Positions 2,601 through 60,393 of a stretch of DNA of 64,000 bases are shown here, piece after piece; position 1 is the first letter of the stretch; every line of letters begins with the position of its first letter. Where the stretch lies: NCBI GenBank assembly GCA_000165345.1, contig CM000432.1, positions 320,001 to 384,000 of the forward strand, in the 5' to 3' direction. The notes under the pieces are model-generated. The model had not been told where the DNA came from and did no database searches. It was given only the letters and a program-made list of their open reading frames with translations. The position numbers were made by a program, and so were the translations under genes.

Positions 2601-3391
2601 CTTTTCTGTATTGTTCTAATACTATAAAAATATATATTTTTAATCAGCTTAATGTTTAAAATTTATAATTAATATTTTTAAATATATATATAAATATATA
2701 TATTTAAAAATATATATTAGTTTATTTATTTAGTTTCTTTTGTATTTTATTATTTTCAATAACAATTGCATACAAAATAAATTTTCTAAAATTATTTAGA
2801 ACAATTTCAGTCTTGGATAATATGGATTTTATTTTATATCTATTTCTGCTCAATATCAAAGATACATATTTAAATGCTAAAATATTAATCCATTTATTTT
2901 GTCCACTTATAAATCTTAAATAGAAACTTATATGTATCAAACTAATTATTTCTATAACTATATCTAAAACATTATATCGAGCGATAACTATAAAATATTA
3001 ATTATTATTTACTATCTTTAATATTTTAAATAAATTGATTACTAAGTTAGAAAAAAAAAATGTATATATTGATTATTAATCTCATAAATATCTACTTTCT
3101 ATTTTACCGTACTAATTTTTGATATTTCAAAATATTAATAAATTATTTACTTTTTTTATTCCTTCTTGTATGTTAAATTTTCTTTTTTTTTTTTTAATTA
3201 TCTCCTCCAACTTTATAAATCCAATAATATTTTTGCATTACTCGCATTCCCCACATTCCCGCCATTGCATTTATTATGTCAAATATTTACATGTAATTAA
3301 TTTGTATATGGAGAGAAAAATTGCTTTATTTTTTCTTTTTCTTTTTTTTAATTGAATTATTAATTTTTATTAATATAAAGATAATATTAAT

Positions 3392-57745: not shown

Positions 57746-58504
57746 CTATAGGTAAAATATAACATAATGTAGAATAACTATAAGAATATTTAATGGATTT
57801 ATTTGAGGCCAAAGAGTTTTAACAAAATAAATTCTTGTATTGTGACAAACTTGATAAATTAAAAAATCAGAAAGACGTGTTTCCCCTGAAGTTCTTATCA
57901 ATATATTAGGAAATGGTATTTCAGGATTATATATAAAAGATTTAAATTTTTCATCAGAAAGAGTAATATCTTGAATTTGGTTAATATTATTAGAATTAAC
58001 ATTTTTATAATTTTCAAGATACTTTTTTGATGCCATTTCTAATTCTGCTGTCCATGAATAAGCACAACAAATATTAAGAACAATTCCATTATTTTCTTTT
58101 GTTTTAAGTTCTAAATCTTTTAAAGTATCTAATAATTCTTTTGGAAGCATTTCAATTTTCCCAGAAATAACAACTTTAGAATTCTTTTCATTTAACCAAT
58201 TTCCTTCTTTTAAAATATAATCCTTAATTACATTAAATGTATCATCTACATTTTCTTGATTTCTAGAAAAATTCTCCATTGAAAAAACAAACATTGAAAT
58301 ATATTTTACTTTTAGCTTTATAAATAGTGGTAATATTTTCTTTATTAAAAGTGCACCTTGTTTATGTCCTTCTAACTGTGATATTCCCATTGCTTTTGCA
58401 TATCTCCTATTTCCATCTAATATTATTGCTACATGATTGATCTTAAATATGCTTAAAAAACGAGTTAACACTATTTCTAATACTCTTTTTATTAATGATA
58501 TCAT
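57746..58504 (-). CDS. cis-Prenyltransferase (dehydrodolichyl diphosphate synthase / UPP synthase family), 252 aa
   Basis: HVAIILDGNRRYAK; NICCAYSWTAEL; IRTSGETRLSDFLIYQ. Confidence 0.85.
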   Translation of the reverse strand: MISLIKRVLEIVLTRFLSIFKINHVAIILDGNRRYAKAMGISQLEGHKQGALLIKKILPLFIKLKVKYISMFVFSMENFSRNQENVDDTFNVIKDYILKEGNWLNEKNSKVVISGKIEMLPKELLDTLKDLELKTKENNGIVLNICCAYSWTAELEMASKKYLENYKNVNSNNINQIQDITLSDEKFKSFIYNPEIPFPNILIRTSGETRLSDFLIYQVCHNTRIYFVKTLWPQINPLNILIVILHYVIFYL

Positions 58505-58778
58505 TTTAATTAATTTCTTGATAATTTATTAAGATGTTTAATTCACTTCACTATTACATAATATTACTTTACTATAAAAAGATAATAAAAGAAAGGAAAA
58601 AGAATAAATAAACATTTATATTATTTGTTTTACCTCCCCCTCAAATCCTCGACTTGTTAAAAAAAATATATATATATATATATATATATACAATTTTTTT
58701 TTTTTAAATTAATACCATCTACTATCTCAAATATAATAAACTATTGCATTATTGACATAAATAATCTGATAAAGTCAG

Positions 58779-58804
58779 ATGCCCGCGCGCGGCACAGCGC
58801 ATGT
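58779..58804. promoter_or_regulatory. GC-rich palindromic element GATGCCCGCGCGCGGCACAGCGCATG
   Basis: CCCGCGCGCGG palindrome 3 nt downstream of the JPT-like stop codon and about 275 nt upstream of the cis-prenyltransferase ATG (58504). Confidence 0.4.
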
Positions 58805-58806
58805 AT

Positions 58807-59371
58807 TTAATATAAAGAAAATGTTGATTTTCCACCTGGAGGATTATGTACTTTAACATTTGTTTTAAAAGAATTACCAGTAGAAGTTTTACCTAAAGAA
58901 TTATTATCAACATTTTTTACTTCACTGGTTTCAGAGTTATTTTGATTTACATTAAAACTATCATTTTCAATATTAAGATTATTATTTGTTGCATGTAAAT
59001 TTGTTATTTGTTGTTTATTAGTATTTGTTTCATTGTTATTAGTATTAGAGGAATTGCATGTATCTGAAAAGGCGCCTAAATTTGTGATTATTTAAATAAT
59101 GTTGAAATAAAATAATTTGTTTAAAACTTACTGAATCCAAGTCCAAGGGAAGATGAGCCACCAGGTGGATGGTGGATTCTTGTACTTGGTTTACTTCTAA
59201 AGAATTGATTATCTTGAGCGTCTTTTTATTATTATAAAGTTTTATTTTTCAAAAGTAATATTTTATAGAAAATATAAATATATTAATTTATTAATTTCAG
59301 TAAAGTTTATTCGTAATTTAAAAATCAGTTAGATTAATACCAAATAATTGTAATATATTGAACTAACCCAT
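58807..59371 (-). CDS. HN1/Jupiter (JPT)-like small microtubule-associated protein; 3 exons join(complement: 59368..59371, 59132..59221, 58807..59075), about 120 aa; not in the ORF track
   Basis: Exon 1 on the minus strand is ATGG, followed by a GTTAGT donor (intron 59222..59367). Exon 2 encodes DAQDNQFFRSKPSTRIHHPPGGSSSLGLGF (compare JPT1 ..RVLRPPGGGSNFSLGF). GTAAGT donor at 59126..59131 on the minus strand. Exon 3 is an open frame ending ..KVHNPPGGKSTFSLY* (compare JPT1 C-terminus RNPPGGKSSLVLG). The total is 363 nt, in frame. The exon 3 acceptor is either 59075 or 59063; both keep the frame. Confidence 0.6.
59076..59131 (-). other. intron 2 of JPT-like gene (GTAAGT...TTTAG); an alternative acceptor lies 12 nt downstream (TTTTCAG ending at 59064)
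   Basis: Canonical GTAAGT donor; two in-frame AG acceptors are available. Confidence 0.55.
59222..59367 (-). other. intron 1 of JPT-like gene immediately after ATG+1 (GTTAGT...AAAAAG)
   Basis: There is no in-frame ATG inside exon 2. ATGG at 59368..59371 has an A at -3 and is followed by a GT donor, and phase 1 joins correctly to ..AC GCT CAA. Confidence 0.5.
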
Positions 59372-59591
59372 TATTTATTTGTTTTAGTTAGATTCTTTTT
59401 TTTTTTTTTTAATATTATCAACTTTAAATCACTTTTTGAATGAAATTCTAAGAATCTGTTTGAGTATTATTAATAATACAAAAAATAAAGAAAATTAAAT
59501 TATATAAAATGATGATTGAAGAAACAATTATATTTTACCCCTTACCTATTTAATTTATTAATATTTAAAATAAATCTCAATAATATATATA

Positions 59592-59623
<32 letters not shown>

Positions 59624-59704
59624 AATTAATTCCCATGTAATTTTTCCCTCCACTAGAATTTATTTAAAAATTAATATATTCAATTTTATTACTATCCCCA
59701 CGCA

Positions 59705-59723
59705 GTGGCGCCAAAAAACCCGC
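59705..59723. promoter_or_regulatory. E2F-like box GTGGCGCCAAAAAACCCGC in the divergent promoter (JPT-like gene / BRX1)
   Basis: Lies between the gene starts at 59371 (-) and 60394 (+). Confidence 0.5.
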
Positions 59724-60393
59724 TTTAGTTTGAATATTTATAATTATATATATATAAATATATTATACTATTAAAAGACAAATAATGATAAGTAACATCA
59801 ATAACTGCCAAAAATTGATAATTGAAAAATATTTACTAATATAGTAAAAATATTGATAATAGTAGGAAATACGTATATAGATATTATTATTAATATTTAT
59901 TTAAAAAAAAATTAATATTAAATAACTTTGACAGACGAGTTATTATCTGTGTATGTCAAAACACTATAAGAATATTTGTTAAAAAAAAAAAAGAATTATA
60001 TTAATGTACTAATCTAAGATTTTACTAGACTTTTTTTTTAAAAAAAGGAAATAAACAACAGTATTCAAGGTCAAGGGTTTTTTTTTTTTTTTTACTTTTA
60101 AAGAGATTAAGGAAGGTATTTGTTTTTATGTAAGTAATATACTGTAGATATATACTTTTGAATGCAACAGGTTAAAAAGATTTAAAGGTGAAAAAATAAG
60201 ATTTCAAATTTTATACAAGGTAAATAAAGACAAGTTATACTTACATATATAAATGTATATGTACGTATAATTGCAACTATAATCATATTTTCACGTGAAT
60301 TTGGTCAAATAATAATCTTTAAGATAATTAATATTGCAAATATTAAATATTAACAATTTAATAAAAAGTAATACAATAATTTATTAGTAAGGT

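What the first reader, a model, noticed from the sequence alone, without database searches (positions are those of the whole stretch)
58807..59371. Unannotated 3-exon HN1/Jupiter (JPT)-like gene hidden in an apparent intergenic gap
No ORF in the supplied track covers this region. Read on the minus strand it gives ATGG | GTTAGT...AAAAAG | exon 2 | GTAAGT...TTTAG | exon 3. The result is a 120-aa protein with both conserved JPT/HN1 motifs: N-terminal RIHHPPGGSSSLGLGF (compare RVLRPPGGGSNFSLGF) and C-terminal HNPPGGKSTFSLY (compare NPPGGKSSLVLG). The first exon holds only ATG plus one nucleotide, so the gene is invisible to ORF finders. A GGCGCC E2F-type box also sits exactly at the intron 2 / exon 3 junction (59071..59076).
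Basis: partly seen in the sequence, partly recalled or inferred. Interest (0 to 1): 0.6.

Follow-up and report, generated by a model that had tools for sequence, protein, structure and literature searches.

The report
Small Jupiter/SPIRAL1-like microtubule protein gene
The apparent gap holds a real three-exon Cryptosporidium parvum gene, already in public annotations as an "uncharacterized protein", that encodes a 120-residue disordered protein whose two end motifs match those of the animal Jupiter/HN1 microtubule-binding proteins.

Summary
On the minus strand, ATGG (59371..59368), exon 2 (59221..59132) and exon 3 (59075..58807) splice into a 120-aa ORF with GT..AG introns of 146 and 56 nt.

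The gene is not new. The exact protein is already annotated in C. parvum (CPATCC_0018640, QOY42041.1, CPHLJ_4g1515) and, in near-identical form, in C. hominis and C. meleagridis. All are named uncharacterized.

The 4-nt first coding exon is conserved in six Cryptosporidium species, Plasmodium falciparum and Hammondia. Synteny (Brix, this gene, prenyltransferase) is conserved in the four other Cryptosporidium species examined.

The Jupiter/HN1 resemblance is real but limited to the two motifs.
- Profile-profile comparison aligns N-motif to N-motif (93-95%, E about 1e-7) and C-terminus to C-terminus (91%, E 1e-6). Reversed controls give nothing.
- A Cryptosporidium-only profile finds a Pfam JUPITER protein that passes the curated cut-off, at E 2.4e-6 in 1.84 billion proteins.
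- UniRef already names the P. falciparum ortholog "Microtubule-associated protein Jupiter".
- The protein itself does not hit Pfam JUPITER and lacks the internal MASNIFG motif.

It resembles plant SPIRAL1 about as well. The likely function is direct microtubule binding through the two PPGG modules; this is inferred. The GGCGCC at the intron 2/exon 3 junction is not supported as an E2F site.

The parts
59368..59371 (-). Coding exon 1: ATG plus one G (a phase-1 intron follows)
   Evidence: ATGG|GT is conserved in C. felis, C. bovis, C. ubiquitum, C. ryanae, P. falciparum and Hammondia hammondi.
59222..59367 (-). Intron 1, 146 nt, GTTAGT...AAAAAG, 13% GC
   Evidence: It is 58% identical to the C. 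ubiquitum intron, against 87% for exon 2.
59132..59221 (-). Exon 2 (90 nt), residues 2-32
   Evidence: The exon is intact in C. ubiquitum although that species' annotation skips it.
59133..59198 (-). N-terminal PPGG module, RSKPSTRIHHPPGGSSSLGLGF (residues 10-31)
   Evidence: Coordinates. It aligns to the JPT N-motif SSRVL(R/K)PPGGGS..FG with hhalign 94.6% (E 6.5e-8) and 92.9%. The core residues are invariant across six Cryptosporidium species.
59076..59131 (-). Intron 2, 56 nt, GTAAGT...TTTAG, 14% GC, phase 1
   Evidence: P. falciparum has an intron at the same aligned codon and phase. Hammondia has a phase-1 intron one codon further from the PGG motif.
58807..59075 (-). Exon 3 (269 nt), residues 32-120 plus the TAA stop (58807..58809); Asn/Ser/Thr-rich variable linker followed by the C-terminal module
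58810..58869 (-). C-terminal PPGG module, FKTNVKVHNPPGGKSTFSLY-COOH (residues 101-120)
   Evidence: Coordinates. K102-L119 is nearly invariant in Cryptosporidium. It aligns end to end with the JPT C-terminus ..KVLNPPGGKSSISFY (hhalign 91.2%, E 1e-6). The JPT2 C-terminal 13 aa localise to microtubules experimentally (PMC12773733).
59064..59075 (-). 12-nt stretch between tandem in-frame acceptors (TTTAG| at 59076/59075 and TTTTCAG| at 59064/59063)
   Evidence: The same tandem arrangement is present in C. ubiquitum. The 116-aa product is not in the protein collection.
59071..59076 (.). GGCGCC hexamer across the intron 2/exon 3 junction; probably not a functional E2F site
59707..59712 (.). GGCGCC in consensus context (gtGGCGCCaaaaaa), 336 nt upstream of the ATG in the region shared with the divergent Brix gene; the more plausible E2F-type promoter box
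   Evidence: A GGCGCC lies at -310 in C. ubiquitum. The published C. parvum E2F motif is TGGCGCCA / DTTGSCGCCH.

Best explanation
The locus is a real, spliced, protein-coding gene of Cryptosporidium parvum chromosome 4. It encodes a 13-kDa intrinsically disordered protein made of two conserved terminal modules joined by a fast-evolving Asn/Ser/Thr-rich linker. The N-terminal module is ..DNQFFRSKPSTRIHHPPGGSSSLGLGF. The C-terminal module is KTNVKVHNPPGGKSTFSLY-COOH.

It is the Cryptosporidium ortholog of a family found in Plasmodium, Toxoplasma/Hammondia and Chromera. That family belongs to a wider set of eukaryotic proteins built from the module (P/S)(S/T)T(R/K)V(H/L)x(P/A)PGGxS(S/N)(F/I/L)x(L/F)G. 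The characterised members are animal Jupiter/JPT1(HN1)/JPT2(HN1L) and, probably, plant SPIRAL1.

Shown here: the gene model, its conservation, the disorder of the protein and the motif-level homology.

Inferred: each PPGG module contacts tubulin directly, so the protein binds the parasite's microtubules bivalently and modulates their stability or the access of other factors. By analogy with JPT2 the site could be luminal, near the taxane pocket of beta-tubulin. By analogy with SPIRAL1 it could be the growing plus end.
For: Gene model:
- Exact identity to deposited C. parvum proteins.
- Same 565-bp annotated span and identical DNA in two assemblies.
- Brix / gene / prenyltransferase synteny in four further species.
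- The ATGG|GT micro-exon is conserved in six Cryptosporidium species, P. falciparum and Hammondia.
- Exons are more conserved than introns, and changes in the motifs are mostly synonymous.
- The 2015 reannotation required cDNA or RNA-seq support for new models (PMC4637869). I could not confirm that this gene was one of them.

Disorder: AlphaFold2 mean pLDDT 51 and essentially no secondary structure (one three-residue helical turn).

Homology:
- hhalign of the Cryptosporidium alignment against a JPT1/JPT2 alignment gives 94.6%, E 6.5e-8.
- The apicomplexan/chromerid alignment against JPT gives N-to-N 92.9% and C-to-C 91.2%, the latter running to the last residue of both families. Reversed-sequence controls give E 0.6-0.7.
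- The family HMM scores JPT2 at 46.9 and 32.2 bits and JPT1 at 29.4 bits. The best of 20,000 composition-matched shuffles scores 13.2.
- A Cryptosporidium-only profile against 1.84 billion proteins gives 260 hits at E<=1e-3.
- JUPITER is the Pfam family most often hit among the 129 listed hits that were new to the session: 10 of them at E<=0.01. One, P0334, is above the curated cut-off (43.4 bits against 27) and was itself found at E 2.4e-6.
- The Toxoplasma/Hammondia and Chromera orthologs and a third family member from a transcriptome (P0291) give sub-threshold JUPITER hits.
- UniRef names the P. falciparum ortholog 'Microtubule-associated protein Jupiter'.

Mechanism by analogy: in JPT2 the PPGGK*S repeats are required for microtubule localisation, and the C-terminal 13 aa LNPPGGKSSISFY localise to microtubules. 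Here the C-terminus is HNPPGGKSTFSLY. JPT2 binds microtubules directly and is displaced by taxanes (PMC12773733). In SPIRAL1 the conserved N and C ends alone track plus ends in vitro (10.1101/521047).
Against: - There is no experimental evidence for expression, localisation or tubulin binding of this protein or any apicomplexan ortholog. Four literature searches found none; two of them were poorly targeted.
- The protein does not hit Pfam JUPITER at E<=10.
- It lacks the internal MASNIFG motif that is nearly invariant in JPT1/JPT2 (six of seven residues fixed).
- The similarity covers only about 20 residues at each end of a disordered protein, so convergence of a short linear motif cannot be excluded.
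- In parvum the C-terminal motif reads PPGGKST, not the PPGGK-x-S of JPT2. C. felis, C. bovis and C. ryanae have PPGGKSS.
- JPT2 is also reported as an NAADP-binding protein (abstracts listed), so microtubule binding need not be the only function.
- In SPIRAL1 the C-terminal PGGG could be mutated without loss of plus-end tracking.
Confidence: 0.6

Rival explanations
1. The gene is real, but the PPGG motifs are short linear motifs that arose convergently or serve another partner. The protein would then act in a different process and not as a microtubule-associated protein. One example is Ca2+/NAADP signalling, as reported for JPT2/HN1L.
For: The similarity is confined to two stretches of about 20 residues in a fully disordered, low-complexity protein. 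There is no Pfam JUPITER hit. The internal JPT motif is absent. JPT2 is described as an NAADP-binding protein in several listed papers.
Against: The two motifs are collinear with those of JPT, and the C-terminal one sits at the extreme C-terminus in both families. Real JPT proteins score far above 20,000 shuffles. Intermediate sequences link the families: ciliate proteins with an NQSSIFG mid-motif like the JPT MASNIFG, and P0334, which passes the JUPITER cut-off. In JPT2 it is exactly these motifs that mediate microtubule binding.
Confidence: 0.25
2. The region is non-coding or a decayed pseudogene, and the spliced ORF is a product of chance or of annotation transfer.
For: No single ORF spans it. 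A 4-nt first exon is unusual. No transcript data could be examined here.
Against: - The exon/intron structure, phases and reading frame are conserved from Cryptosporidium to Plasmodium and Hammondia.
- The motif residues are invariant across six Cryptosporidium species that are only 47-74% identical overall.
- There is a synonymous excess in the motif codons.
- There are 260 significant relatives in the library.
Confidence: 0.02
3. The GGCGCC at 59071..59076 is a functional intragenic E2F/DP site, for instance one driving the downstream prenyltransferase gene or an internal transcript.
For: GGCGCC is strongly enriched in the window: 14 copies against 0.22 expected. It is the core of the dominant C. 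parvum promoter motif (PMC3734150; 10.1101/2025.01.17.633476). Four other copies lie inside long ORFs.
Against: Its flanks are aaGGCGCCta. It is the only one of the 14 copies with neither a 5' T nor a 3' A next to the core, and it does not fit DTTGSCGCCH on either strand. The hexamer is not conserved: C. ubiquitum has GGCTCT, and C. felis, C. bovis and C. ryanae have none. The bases are explained by the splice acceptor plus the Ser-Ala codons.
Confidence: 0.08

Closest known systems
Animal Jupiter / JPT1 (HN1) / JPT2 (HN1L) family (Pfam PF17054, 'Microtubule-Associated protein Jupiter')
   Same: - Small, disordered proteins.
- The N-terminal motif S(S/T)R(V/I)..PPGGxS...(L/F)G and a motif at the extreme C-terminus, (K)V(L/H)NPPGGKS(S/T).S(L/F)(G/Y)-COOH, occur in the same order.
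- The C-terminal 13 residues are HNPPGGKSTFSLY here and LNPPGGKSSISFY in JPT2, 9 of 13 identical (my count from the sequences).
- In JPT2 this peptide and the PPGGK*S repeats mediate microtubule binding.
   Different: - The protein is below any Pfam JUPITER score.
- It has no internal MASNIFG motif and none of the extra internal PPGG repeats of JPT2.
- The N-terminus carries an M(D/E)xxDN(Q/P)F extension specific to apicomplexans and chromerids.
- The linker is Asn-rich and unrelated.
Plant SPIRAL1 (SPR1/SP1L), described as a plant-specific 12-kDa plus-end tracking protein
   Same: The size is the same (119 against 120 aa). The plan is the same: conserved N- and C-terminal direct-repeat modules with G-G-G / P-G-G-G followed by SSL...F, joined by a variable middle. 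The family HMM scores my recalled AtSPR1 at 29.3 bits against 13.2 for the best shuffle, through ..RPSTKVHAAPGGGSSLDY. Oomycete and diplonemid hits carry the SPR1-like extension NQNxGNxxTDRxxTRxHAPPGG.
   Different: The SPR1 N-terminal module lacks the PST(K/R)VH..P part (it reads GGGQSSLDYLFG). SPR1 ends ..YLFTGGK, not at the motif. The SPR1 sequence used was recalled from memory; only its termini were checked, against primers printed in 10.1101/521047. No real SPR1 sequence was among the proteins fetched.
Apicomplexan/chromerid orthologs: P. falciparum 91-aa 'conserved Plasmodium protein, unknown function' (UniRef: 'Microtubule-associated protein Jupiter'), Toxoplasma TGRH88_063690 / Hammondia HHA_249935, Chromera Cvel_6452
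   Same: Full-length collinear similarity (27-36% identity to the non-Cryptosporidium members of the family alignment), covering the MDxxDNxF...PSTR.H..PGG N-terminus and the KT.V.V..PPGG.S C-terminus. All share the ATGG micro-exon and the second intron position.
   Different: Cryptosporidium has lost the third intron, which lies inside the C-terminal motif in Plasmodium and Hammondia. The Cryptosporidium protein ends in Y, not G. None of these orthologs has been studied experimentally as far as the literature searches show.
Ciliate small PPGG-repeat proteins and plant DUF4057 (PF13266)
   Same: They carry 2-4 copies of TSVKVH(H/N)(A/P)PGG(K/Q)S(N/S)F(S/T)LG. These are the best non-apicomplexan hits of the first searches. 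Some carry precomputed PF13266 hits.
   Different: They have more repeats and lack the DNxF N-terminal extension. Many have a mid-motif NQSSIFG that is absent here. The DUF4057 hits of the Cryptosporidium-family proteins are only weak.

Membership tests
Jupiter/JPT/HN1 (Pfam PF17054) | Scores above the curated Pfam gathering threshold (27 bits) | tested here: not met
   The C. parvum protein and the C. felis and C. bovis orthologs give no JUPITER hit at E<=10. Only 4 of the 17 family members reach E<=1, the best at 19.8 bits. As a positive control, human JPT1 scores 33.6 bits.
Jupiter/JPT/HN1 (Pfam PF17054) | N-terminal motif SSRVL(R/K)PPGGxS..(L/F)G | tested here: met
   hhalign 94.6%, E 6.5e-8, and 92.9%. 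BLASTP against platypus JPT2 gives E 4e-4 for this stretch.
Jupiter/JPT/HN1 (Pfam PF17054) | NPPGGKSS.... motif at the extreme C-terminus | tested here: met
   hhalign C-to-C 91.2%, E 1e-6, ending at the last residue of both profiles. BLASTP gives E 2e-5.
Jupiter/JPT/HN1 (Pfam PF17054) | Internal (R/K)MASNIFG motif (M, A, S, I, F and G invariant across the 13 JPT1/JPT2 sequences aligned) | tested here: not met
   The invariant columns M47, A48, S49, I51, F52 and G53 are seen. No S(S/N)I.FG match exists in the window protein. Ciliate relatives do have NQSSIFG.
Jupiter/JPT/HN1 (Pfam PF17054) | Significant sequence link to a member that passes the threshold in an unbiased search | tested here: met
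   A profile of five Cryptosporidium sequences finds P0334 at E 2.4e-6 in 1.84 billion proteins. P0334 scores 43.4 bits on PF17054.
Jupiter/JPT/HN1 (Pfam PF17054) | Direct binding to microtubules | not testable with these tools
   This is known for Jupiter and JPT2. There are no data for any apicomplexan member.
Plant SPIRAL1/SP1L | Direct repeat GG(G/H)(Q/-)SSL.YLFG at both the N- and C-terminus (PMC9959322) | tested here: inconclusive
   The window protein has PPGGSSSLGLGF and PPGGKSTFSLY. These match G-G-x-S-S-L....F loosely and lack YLFG. The HMM scores recalled AtSPR1 at 29.3 bits against 13.2 for shuffles, but only through its C-terminal domain. The SPR1 sequence is only partly verified.
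Plant SPIRAL1/SP1L | About 12 kDa, conserved termini, variable disordered middle | tested here: met
   The protein is 120 aa and 13.0 kDa. The termini are conserved and the linker is variable. pLDDT is below 50 across most of the linker (residues 39-91).
Apicomplexan/chromerid orthogroup (Plasmodium, Toxoplasma, Chromera, Cryptosporidium small PPGG protein) | M(D/E)xxDN(Q/P)F..(K/R)PST(R/K).H..PGG N-terminus and (K/R)(T/S).V(K/R)V..PPGG C-terminus as single copies | tested here: met
   In the 17-sequence alignment A6, D5, N6, S14, T15, P21, G22, G23, G30 and P110-G113 are invariant.
Apicomplexan/chromerid orthogroup (Plasmodium, Toxoplasma, Chromera, Cryptosporidium small PPGG protein) | Shared gene structure: 4-nt first coding exon and a phase-1 intron after the N-motif | tested here: met

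The most novel reading that the evidence does not exclude
The Cryptosporidium protein and its apicomplexan orthologs would show that animal Jupiter/JPT proteins, plant SPIRAL1 (described in the literature as plant-specific) and many protist proteins are one ancient, pan-eukaryotic family. The family would be built from a roughly 20-residue tubulin-binding PPGG module. In apicomplexans the minimal two-module form would be an unstudied microtubule protein, possibly luminal and binding at the taxane site, of the subpellicular or spindle microtubules. The literature library held only one paper with both SPIRAL1 and Jupiter, and its title and abstract are unrelated to either protein family. It held no paper with both Jupiter and subpellicular microtubules.
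Probability: 0.4. Interest if true: 0.55.

Novelty: new member of a known kind. Interest (0 to 1): 0.3.

Why it matters
For the genome, the case shows that a naive ORF track misses a conserved gene whose first coding exon is only ATG+G. It also shows that two public annotations of the ortholog are wrong for that reason: the C. ubiquitum model skips exon 2, and the C. ryanae model starts inside intron 1.

For biology, the finding gives a testable function to a protein now labelled "uncharacterized" in Cryptosporidium, Toxoplasma and Plasmodium. The proposed function is a minimal two-module Jupiter/SPIRAL1-type microtubule binder. Apicomplexan subpellicular microtubules are unusually stable and are drug targets. 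Recent work places JPT2 in the microtubule lumen, where it competes with taxanes. An apicomplexan counterpart would therefore be worth tagging.

The gene itself is not a discovery. The Jupiter label already exists for the Plasmodium ortholog in UniRef.

Tried and rejected
- Pfam scan of the spliced protein gave only a chance TSC22 hit.
- A profile search of all PDB chain sequences found nothing meaningful (CdiA, E 0.67), so no solved relative exists.
- AlphaFold2 gave a disordered model (pLDDT 51). Fold searches were not run because they would be meaningless on such a model.
- An Rfam scan of 58500..59800 on both strands gave only a chance bacterial sRNA match (E 0.23, far below its gathering score). 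There is no evidence for an intronic snoRNA or other known RNA.
- Literature searches for the gene identifiers and for Jupiter with subpellicular microtubules found nothing. Two searches were poorly targeted and uninformative.
- I tried to verify the internal part of the SPIRAL1 C-domain from the literature and failed. That part of the comparison rests on a recalled sequence.
- The 116-aa isoform from the alternative acceptor at 59063 is not in the protein collection. Its use cannot be judged without transcript data.
- The first look-up of the window protein returned only genomic records, no spliced transcript contigs. Splicing is therefore supported by conservation and by the public annotation, not by reads I could inspect.
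Full report
**What is there.** The window is AT-rich (27% GC). It comes from Cryptosporidium parvum chromosome 4: the gene region is 100% identical to assemblies GCA_048859185.1 and GCA_035232765.1. On the minus strand the sequence reads aaataaataATGG|GTTAGT...AAAAAG|ACGCTCAAGAT...GGATTCA|GTAAGT...AAATTTAG|GCGCCTTTTCAGAT...TTATATTAA. Joining 59371..59368, 59221..59132 and 59075..58807 gives a 363-nt CDS and a 120-aa protein. A second acceptor 12 nt downstream (59063) is also in frame. No mechanical ORF covers the gene.

**Is the gene real, and is it new?** It is real and it is not new.
- The exact 120-aa sequence is deposited for C. parvum as CPATCC_0018640 / QOY42041.1, CPHLJ_4g1515, WKS77344.1 and WRK31985.1.
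- C. hominis (CUV05529.1) and C. meleagridis (cmbei_4001513) proteins fall in the same 90% cluster. All are named hypothetical or uncharacterized.
- The annotated span in two assemblies is the same 565 bp.
- The 116-aa alternative is not on record.
- The 2015 reannotation doubled the number of intron-containing genes, using cDNA and RNA-seq, and required read support for new models (PMC4637869). I could not confirm that this gene was among its 74 additions.

**Comparative evidence for the model.**
- Orthologs lie between a Brix-domain gene and a cis-prenyltransferase gene in C. felis, C. bovis, C. ryanae and C. ubiquitum, as in the window.
- All of these begin ATGG|GT(A/T/G)AGT.
- So does P. 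falciparum (ATGG|GTATAT, then ag|ATGTAAACGAT, giving MDVND).
- So does Hammondia hammondi (ATGG|GTGAGC, then ag|TTGAC, giving MVD).
- The second intron falls at the same aligned codon and phase in Plasmodium. In Hammondia it has the same phase and lies one codon further from the PGG motif. Both carry a third intron inside the C-terminal motif, which Cryptosporidium lacks.
- Between C. parvum and C. ubiquitum, exon 2 is 87% and exon 3 is 75% identical, against 58-61% for the introns. The introns are 13-14% GC against 42% for exon 2. Codon differences in the motif regions are 14 synonymous to 5 non-synonymous.

**The protein.** It has 120 aa, a mass of 13.0 kDa and 24 Asn. AlphaFold2 gives mean pLDDT 51 and essentially no secondary structure (one three-residue helical turn), which indicates disorder. 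Across six Cryptosporidium species that are only 47-74% identical overall, two blocks are almost invariant: D2..G30 (DNxFFRxKPST..HHPPGG.SS.G.G) and K102..L119 (KTNV.VHNPPGGKS.FSL). The linker between them varies freely.

**Relatives.**
- A first search found Cryptosporidium orthologs plus ciliate-type proteins with 2-4 copies of TSVKVH(H/N)(A/P)PGGxS(N/S)F(S/T)LG.
- An exhaustive HMMER search of 1.84 billion representatives with a profile of five Cryptosporidium sequences gave 260 proteins at E<=1e-3 and 24 at E<=1e-10.
- Among them are full-length collinear orthologs about 90-130 aa long. They come from P. falciparum and P. reichenowi, Toxoplasma/Hammondia, Chromera velia and unnamed transcriptomes.
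- The search also found multi-repeat proteins from a dinoflagellate, oomycetes and a diplonemid.
- UniRef already names the P. falciparum ortholog 'Microtubule-associated protein Jupiter'. NCBI calls it a conserved protein of unknown function.
- A 17-sequence alignment defines the apicomplexan/chromerid orthogroup.

**Test of the Jupiter/HN1 claim.**
The protein has no Pfam PF17054 hit at E<=10, while human JPT1 scores 33.6 bits against a cut-off of 27.
- Pfam matches JPT1 only through model positions 1-61 of 359, so this test is insensitive.
- I collected real JPT1 and JPT2 sequences. My recalled queries were validated by 100%-identity hits and by source names. I aligned 13 of them.
- hhalign of the Cryptosporidium alignment against the JPT alignment gives 94.6% probability and E 6.5e-8 for the N-motif.
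- The orthogroup alignment against JPT gives N-to-N 92.9% (E 3.8e-7) and C-to-C 91.2% (E 1e-6). The C-to-C alignment ends on the last residue of both families. Reversing either alignment abolishes the match (E 0.6-0.7).
- The orthogroup HMM scores JPT2 at 46.9 and 32.2 bits and JPT1 at 29.4 bits. The maximum over 20,000 composition-matched shuffles is 13.2.
- Of the 129 listed hits of the Cryptosporidium-only search that were new to the session, JUPITER is the Pfam family most often matched (10 at E<=0.01). P0334 passes the curated cut-off at 43.4 bits and was itself retrieved at E 2.4e-6.
- Against membership, the internal MASNIFG block (six of its seven residues invariant in JPT1/JPT2) is absent here. 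Some ciliate relatives do have NQSSIFG in the equivalent place.
- My conclusion is that this is a motif-level homolog of the Jupiter family with the same two-ended plan, but not a member by the curated threshold.

**SPIRAL1.** From memory, the motif also resembles plant SPIRAL1. Papers describe SPR1 as a 12-kDa, plant-specific plus-end tracker. It has conserved N and C ends carrying GGG and PGGG, and the repeat GG(G/H)(Q/-)SSL.YLFG. The orthogroup HMM scores my recalled AtSPR1 at 29.3 bits through ..RPSTKVHAAPGGGSSLDY. Only the termini of that sequence could be verified, from printed primers. No real SPR1 was in the fetched set, and the literature could not confirm the internal stretch. This is therefore a supported lead and not a completed test.

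**Mechanism.** The following is inferred.
- In JPT2 the PPGGK*S repeats are needed for microtubule localisation.
- The C-terminal 13 residues LNPPGGKSSISFY localise to microtubules. Here the C-terminus is HNPPGGKSTFSLY.
- Purified JPT2 binds microtubules, sits in the lumen and is displaced by taxanes. AlphaFold3 places the peptide in the taxane pocket of beta-tubulin (PMC12773733).
- For SPR1, the N and C ends alone suffice for plus-end tracking in vitro.
- The most likely reading is that the Cryptosporidium protein is a bivalent, disordered microtubule binder. I found no experimental work on any apicomplexan member.

**The E2F remark.**
- GGCGCC is strongly enriched in the window, with 14 copies against 0.22 expected. 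Ten of the 14 copies are intergenic (positions read against the ORF list).
- The consensus context is TTGGCGCCAA. This matches the published C. parvum E2F motif TGGCGCCA / DTTGSCGCCH and its prominence in open chromatin.
- The copy at 59071..59076 is the only one with neither flanking T nor flanking A (aaGGCGCCta). It is not conserved in C. ubiquitum (GGCTCT), C. felis, C. bovis or C. ryanae. The acceptor AG plus the Ser-Ala codons explain the bases.
- A consensus copy at 59707..59712, 336 nt upstream of the ATG, has a counterpart at -310 in C. ubiquitum. It is the better promoter candidate.

**Verdict.** The gene model is exactly right but already public. The Jupiter-like reading is supported at motif and profile level, and UniRef already uses the name for the Plasmodium ortholog. 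The E2F comment is not supported. I classify the protein as a new (uncharacterized) member of a known kind, with interest 0.3. The more novel reading is a pan-eukaryotic PPGG-module family that joins Jupiter/JPT with 'plant-specific' SPIRAL1 and supplies an unstudied apicomplexan microtubule protein. It is not excluded (probability about 0.4).

Noticed in passing
window 58781..58793 (14 nt beyond the stop codon of the gene, minus-strand sense): GCCCGCGCGCGGC is one of only four G/C-only runs of 8 nt or more in the 64-kb window. It contains an E2F-type CGCGCG core. It lies about 280 nt upstream of the next minus-strand gene (cis-prenyltransferase, 57746..58504). Equivalent boxes follow the stop codon in C. 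ubiquitum (gccGCGCGCggga), C. felis (ttGGCGCGCGCGCCaa, a palindrome) and C. bovis (aGGCGCGggcggc).
   Followed up: partly
window 13884, 23221, 24946, 28035, 31205, 31764, 35722, 40886, 43415, 47897, 51594, 57021, 59071, 59707 (start positions): GGCGCC occurs 14 times against 0.22 expected from shuffles. Most copies are in intergenic regions with the context TTGGCGCCAA. This is the known C. parvum E2F-like promoter motif. Four copies lie inside long ORFs.
   Followed up: partly
L004 3001..3525 (C. ubiquitum) and L003 2949..3528 (C. ryanae): Two public gene models of the ortholog appear wrong. cubi_01554 (87 aa) joins ATGG directly to exon 3 and skips an intact exon 2 that encodes the N-terminal motif; the corrected protein is 117 aa. 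FG386_002288 (136 aa) starts at an ATG inside intron 1; the ATGG micro-exon model gives 127 aa beginning MDVSDNPFFRKK.
   Followed up: yes
window 59063..59076; L004 about 3256..3277: Two in-frame acceptors lie 12 nt apart (tttag|GCGCCTTTTCAG|AT). The same arrangement occurs in C. ubiquitum (tttag|GCTCTTTTTCAG|AT). This could allow alternative splicing that removes four residues (SAFS).
   Followed up: no
L009 2501..3336 (P. falciparum) and L010 1501..3418 (Hammondia hammondi): Both orthologs have a third, phase-1 intron inside the C-terminal motif (PPGG.SS|I). Cryptosporidium lacks it, which suggests intron loss in Cryptosporidium. Hammondia intron 1 is about 780 nt, against 146 nt in C. parvum.
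   Followed up: partly
proteins P0019, P0025, P0030-P0035, P0037, P0081 (ciliate-type relatives): Between their PPGG modules many carry a motif NQS(S/N)I(V)FG. It resembles the nearly invariant (R/K)MASNIFG of JPT1/JPT2. This is a further link between the protist and animal families. The motif is absent from the Cryptosporidium protein.
   Followed up: partly
proteins P0308, P0314, P0317, P0355, P0370 (Diplonema, Globisporangium, Aphanomyces, unnamed): These small proteins end in N(Q/A)N.GN..TDR..TR.HAPPGG.SS. The extension is the same one I recall from the C-terminal domain of plant SPIRAL1 (GQNTGNFLTDRPSTKVHAAPGGG). This suggests that SPIRAL1-type modules are not restricted to plants.
   Followed up: partly
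window 58672..58700 and 59590..59615: (TA)n microsatellites and long poly-A tracts flank the gene on both sides.
   Followed up: no
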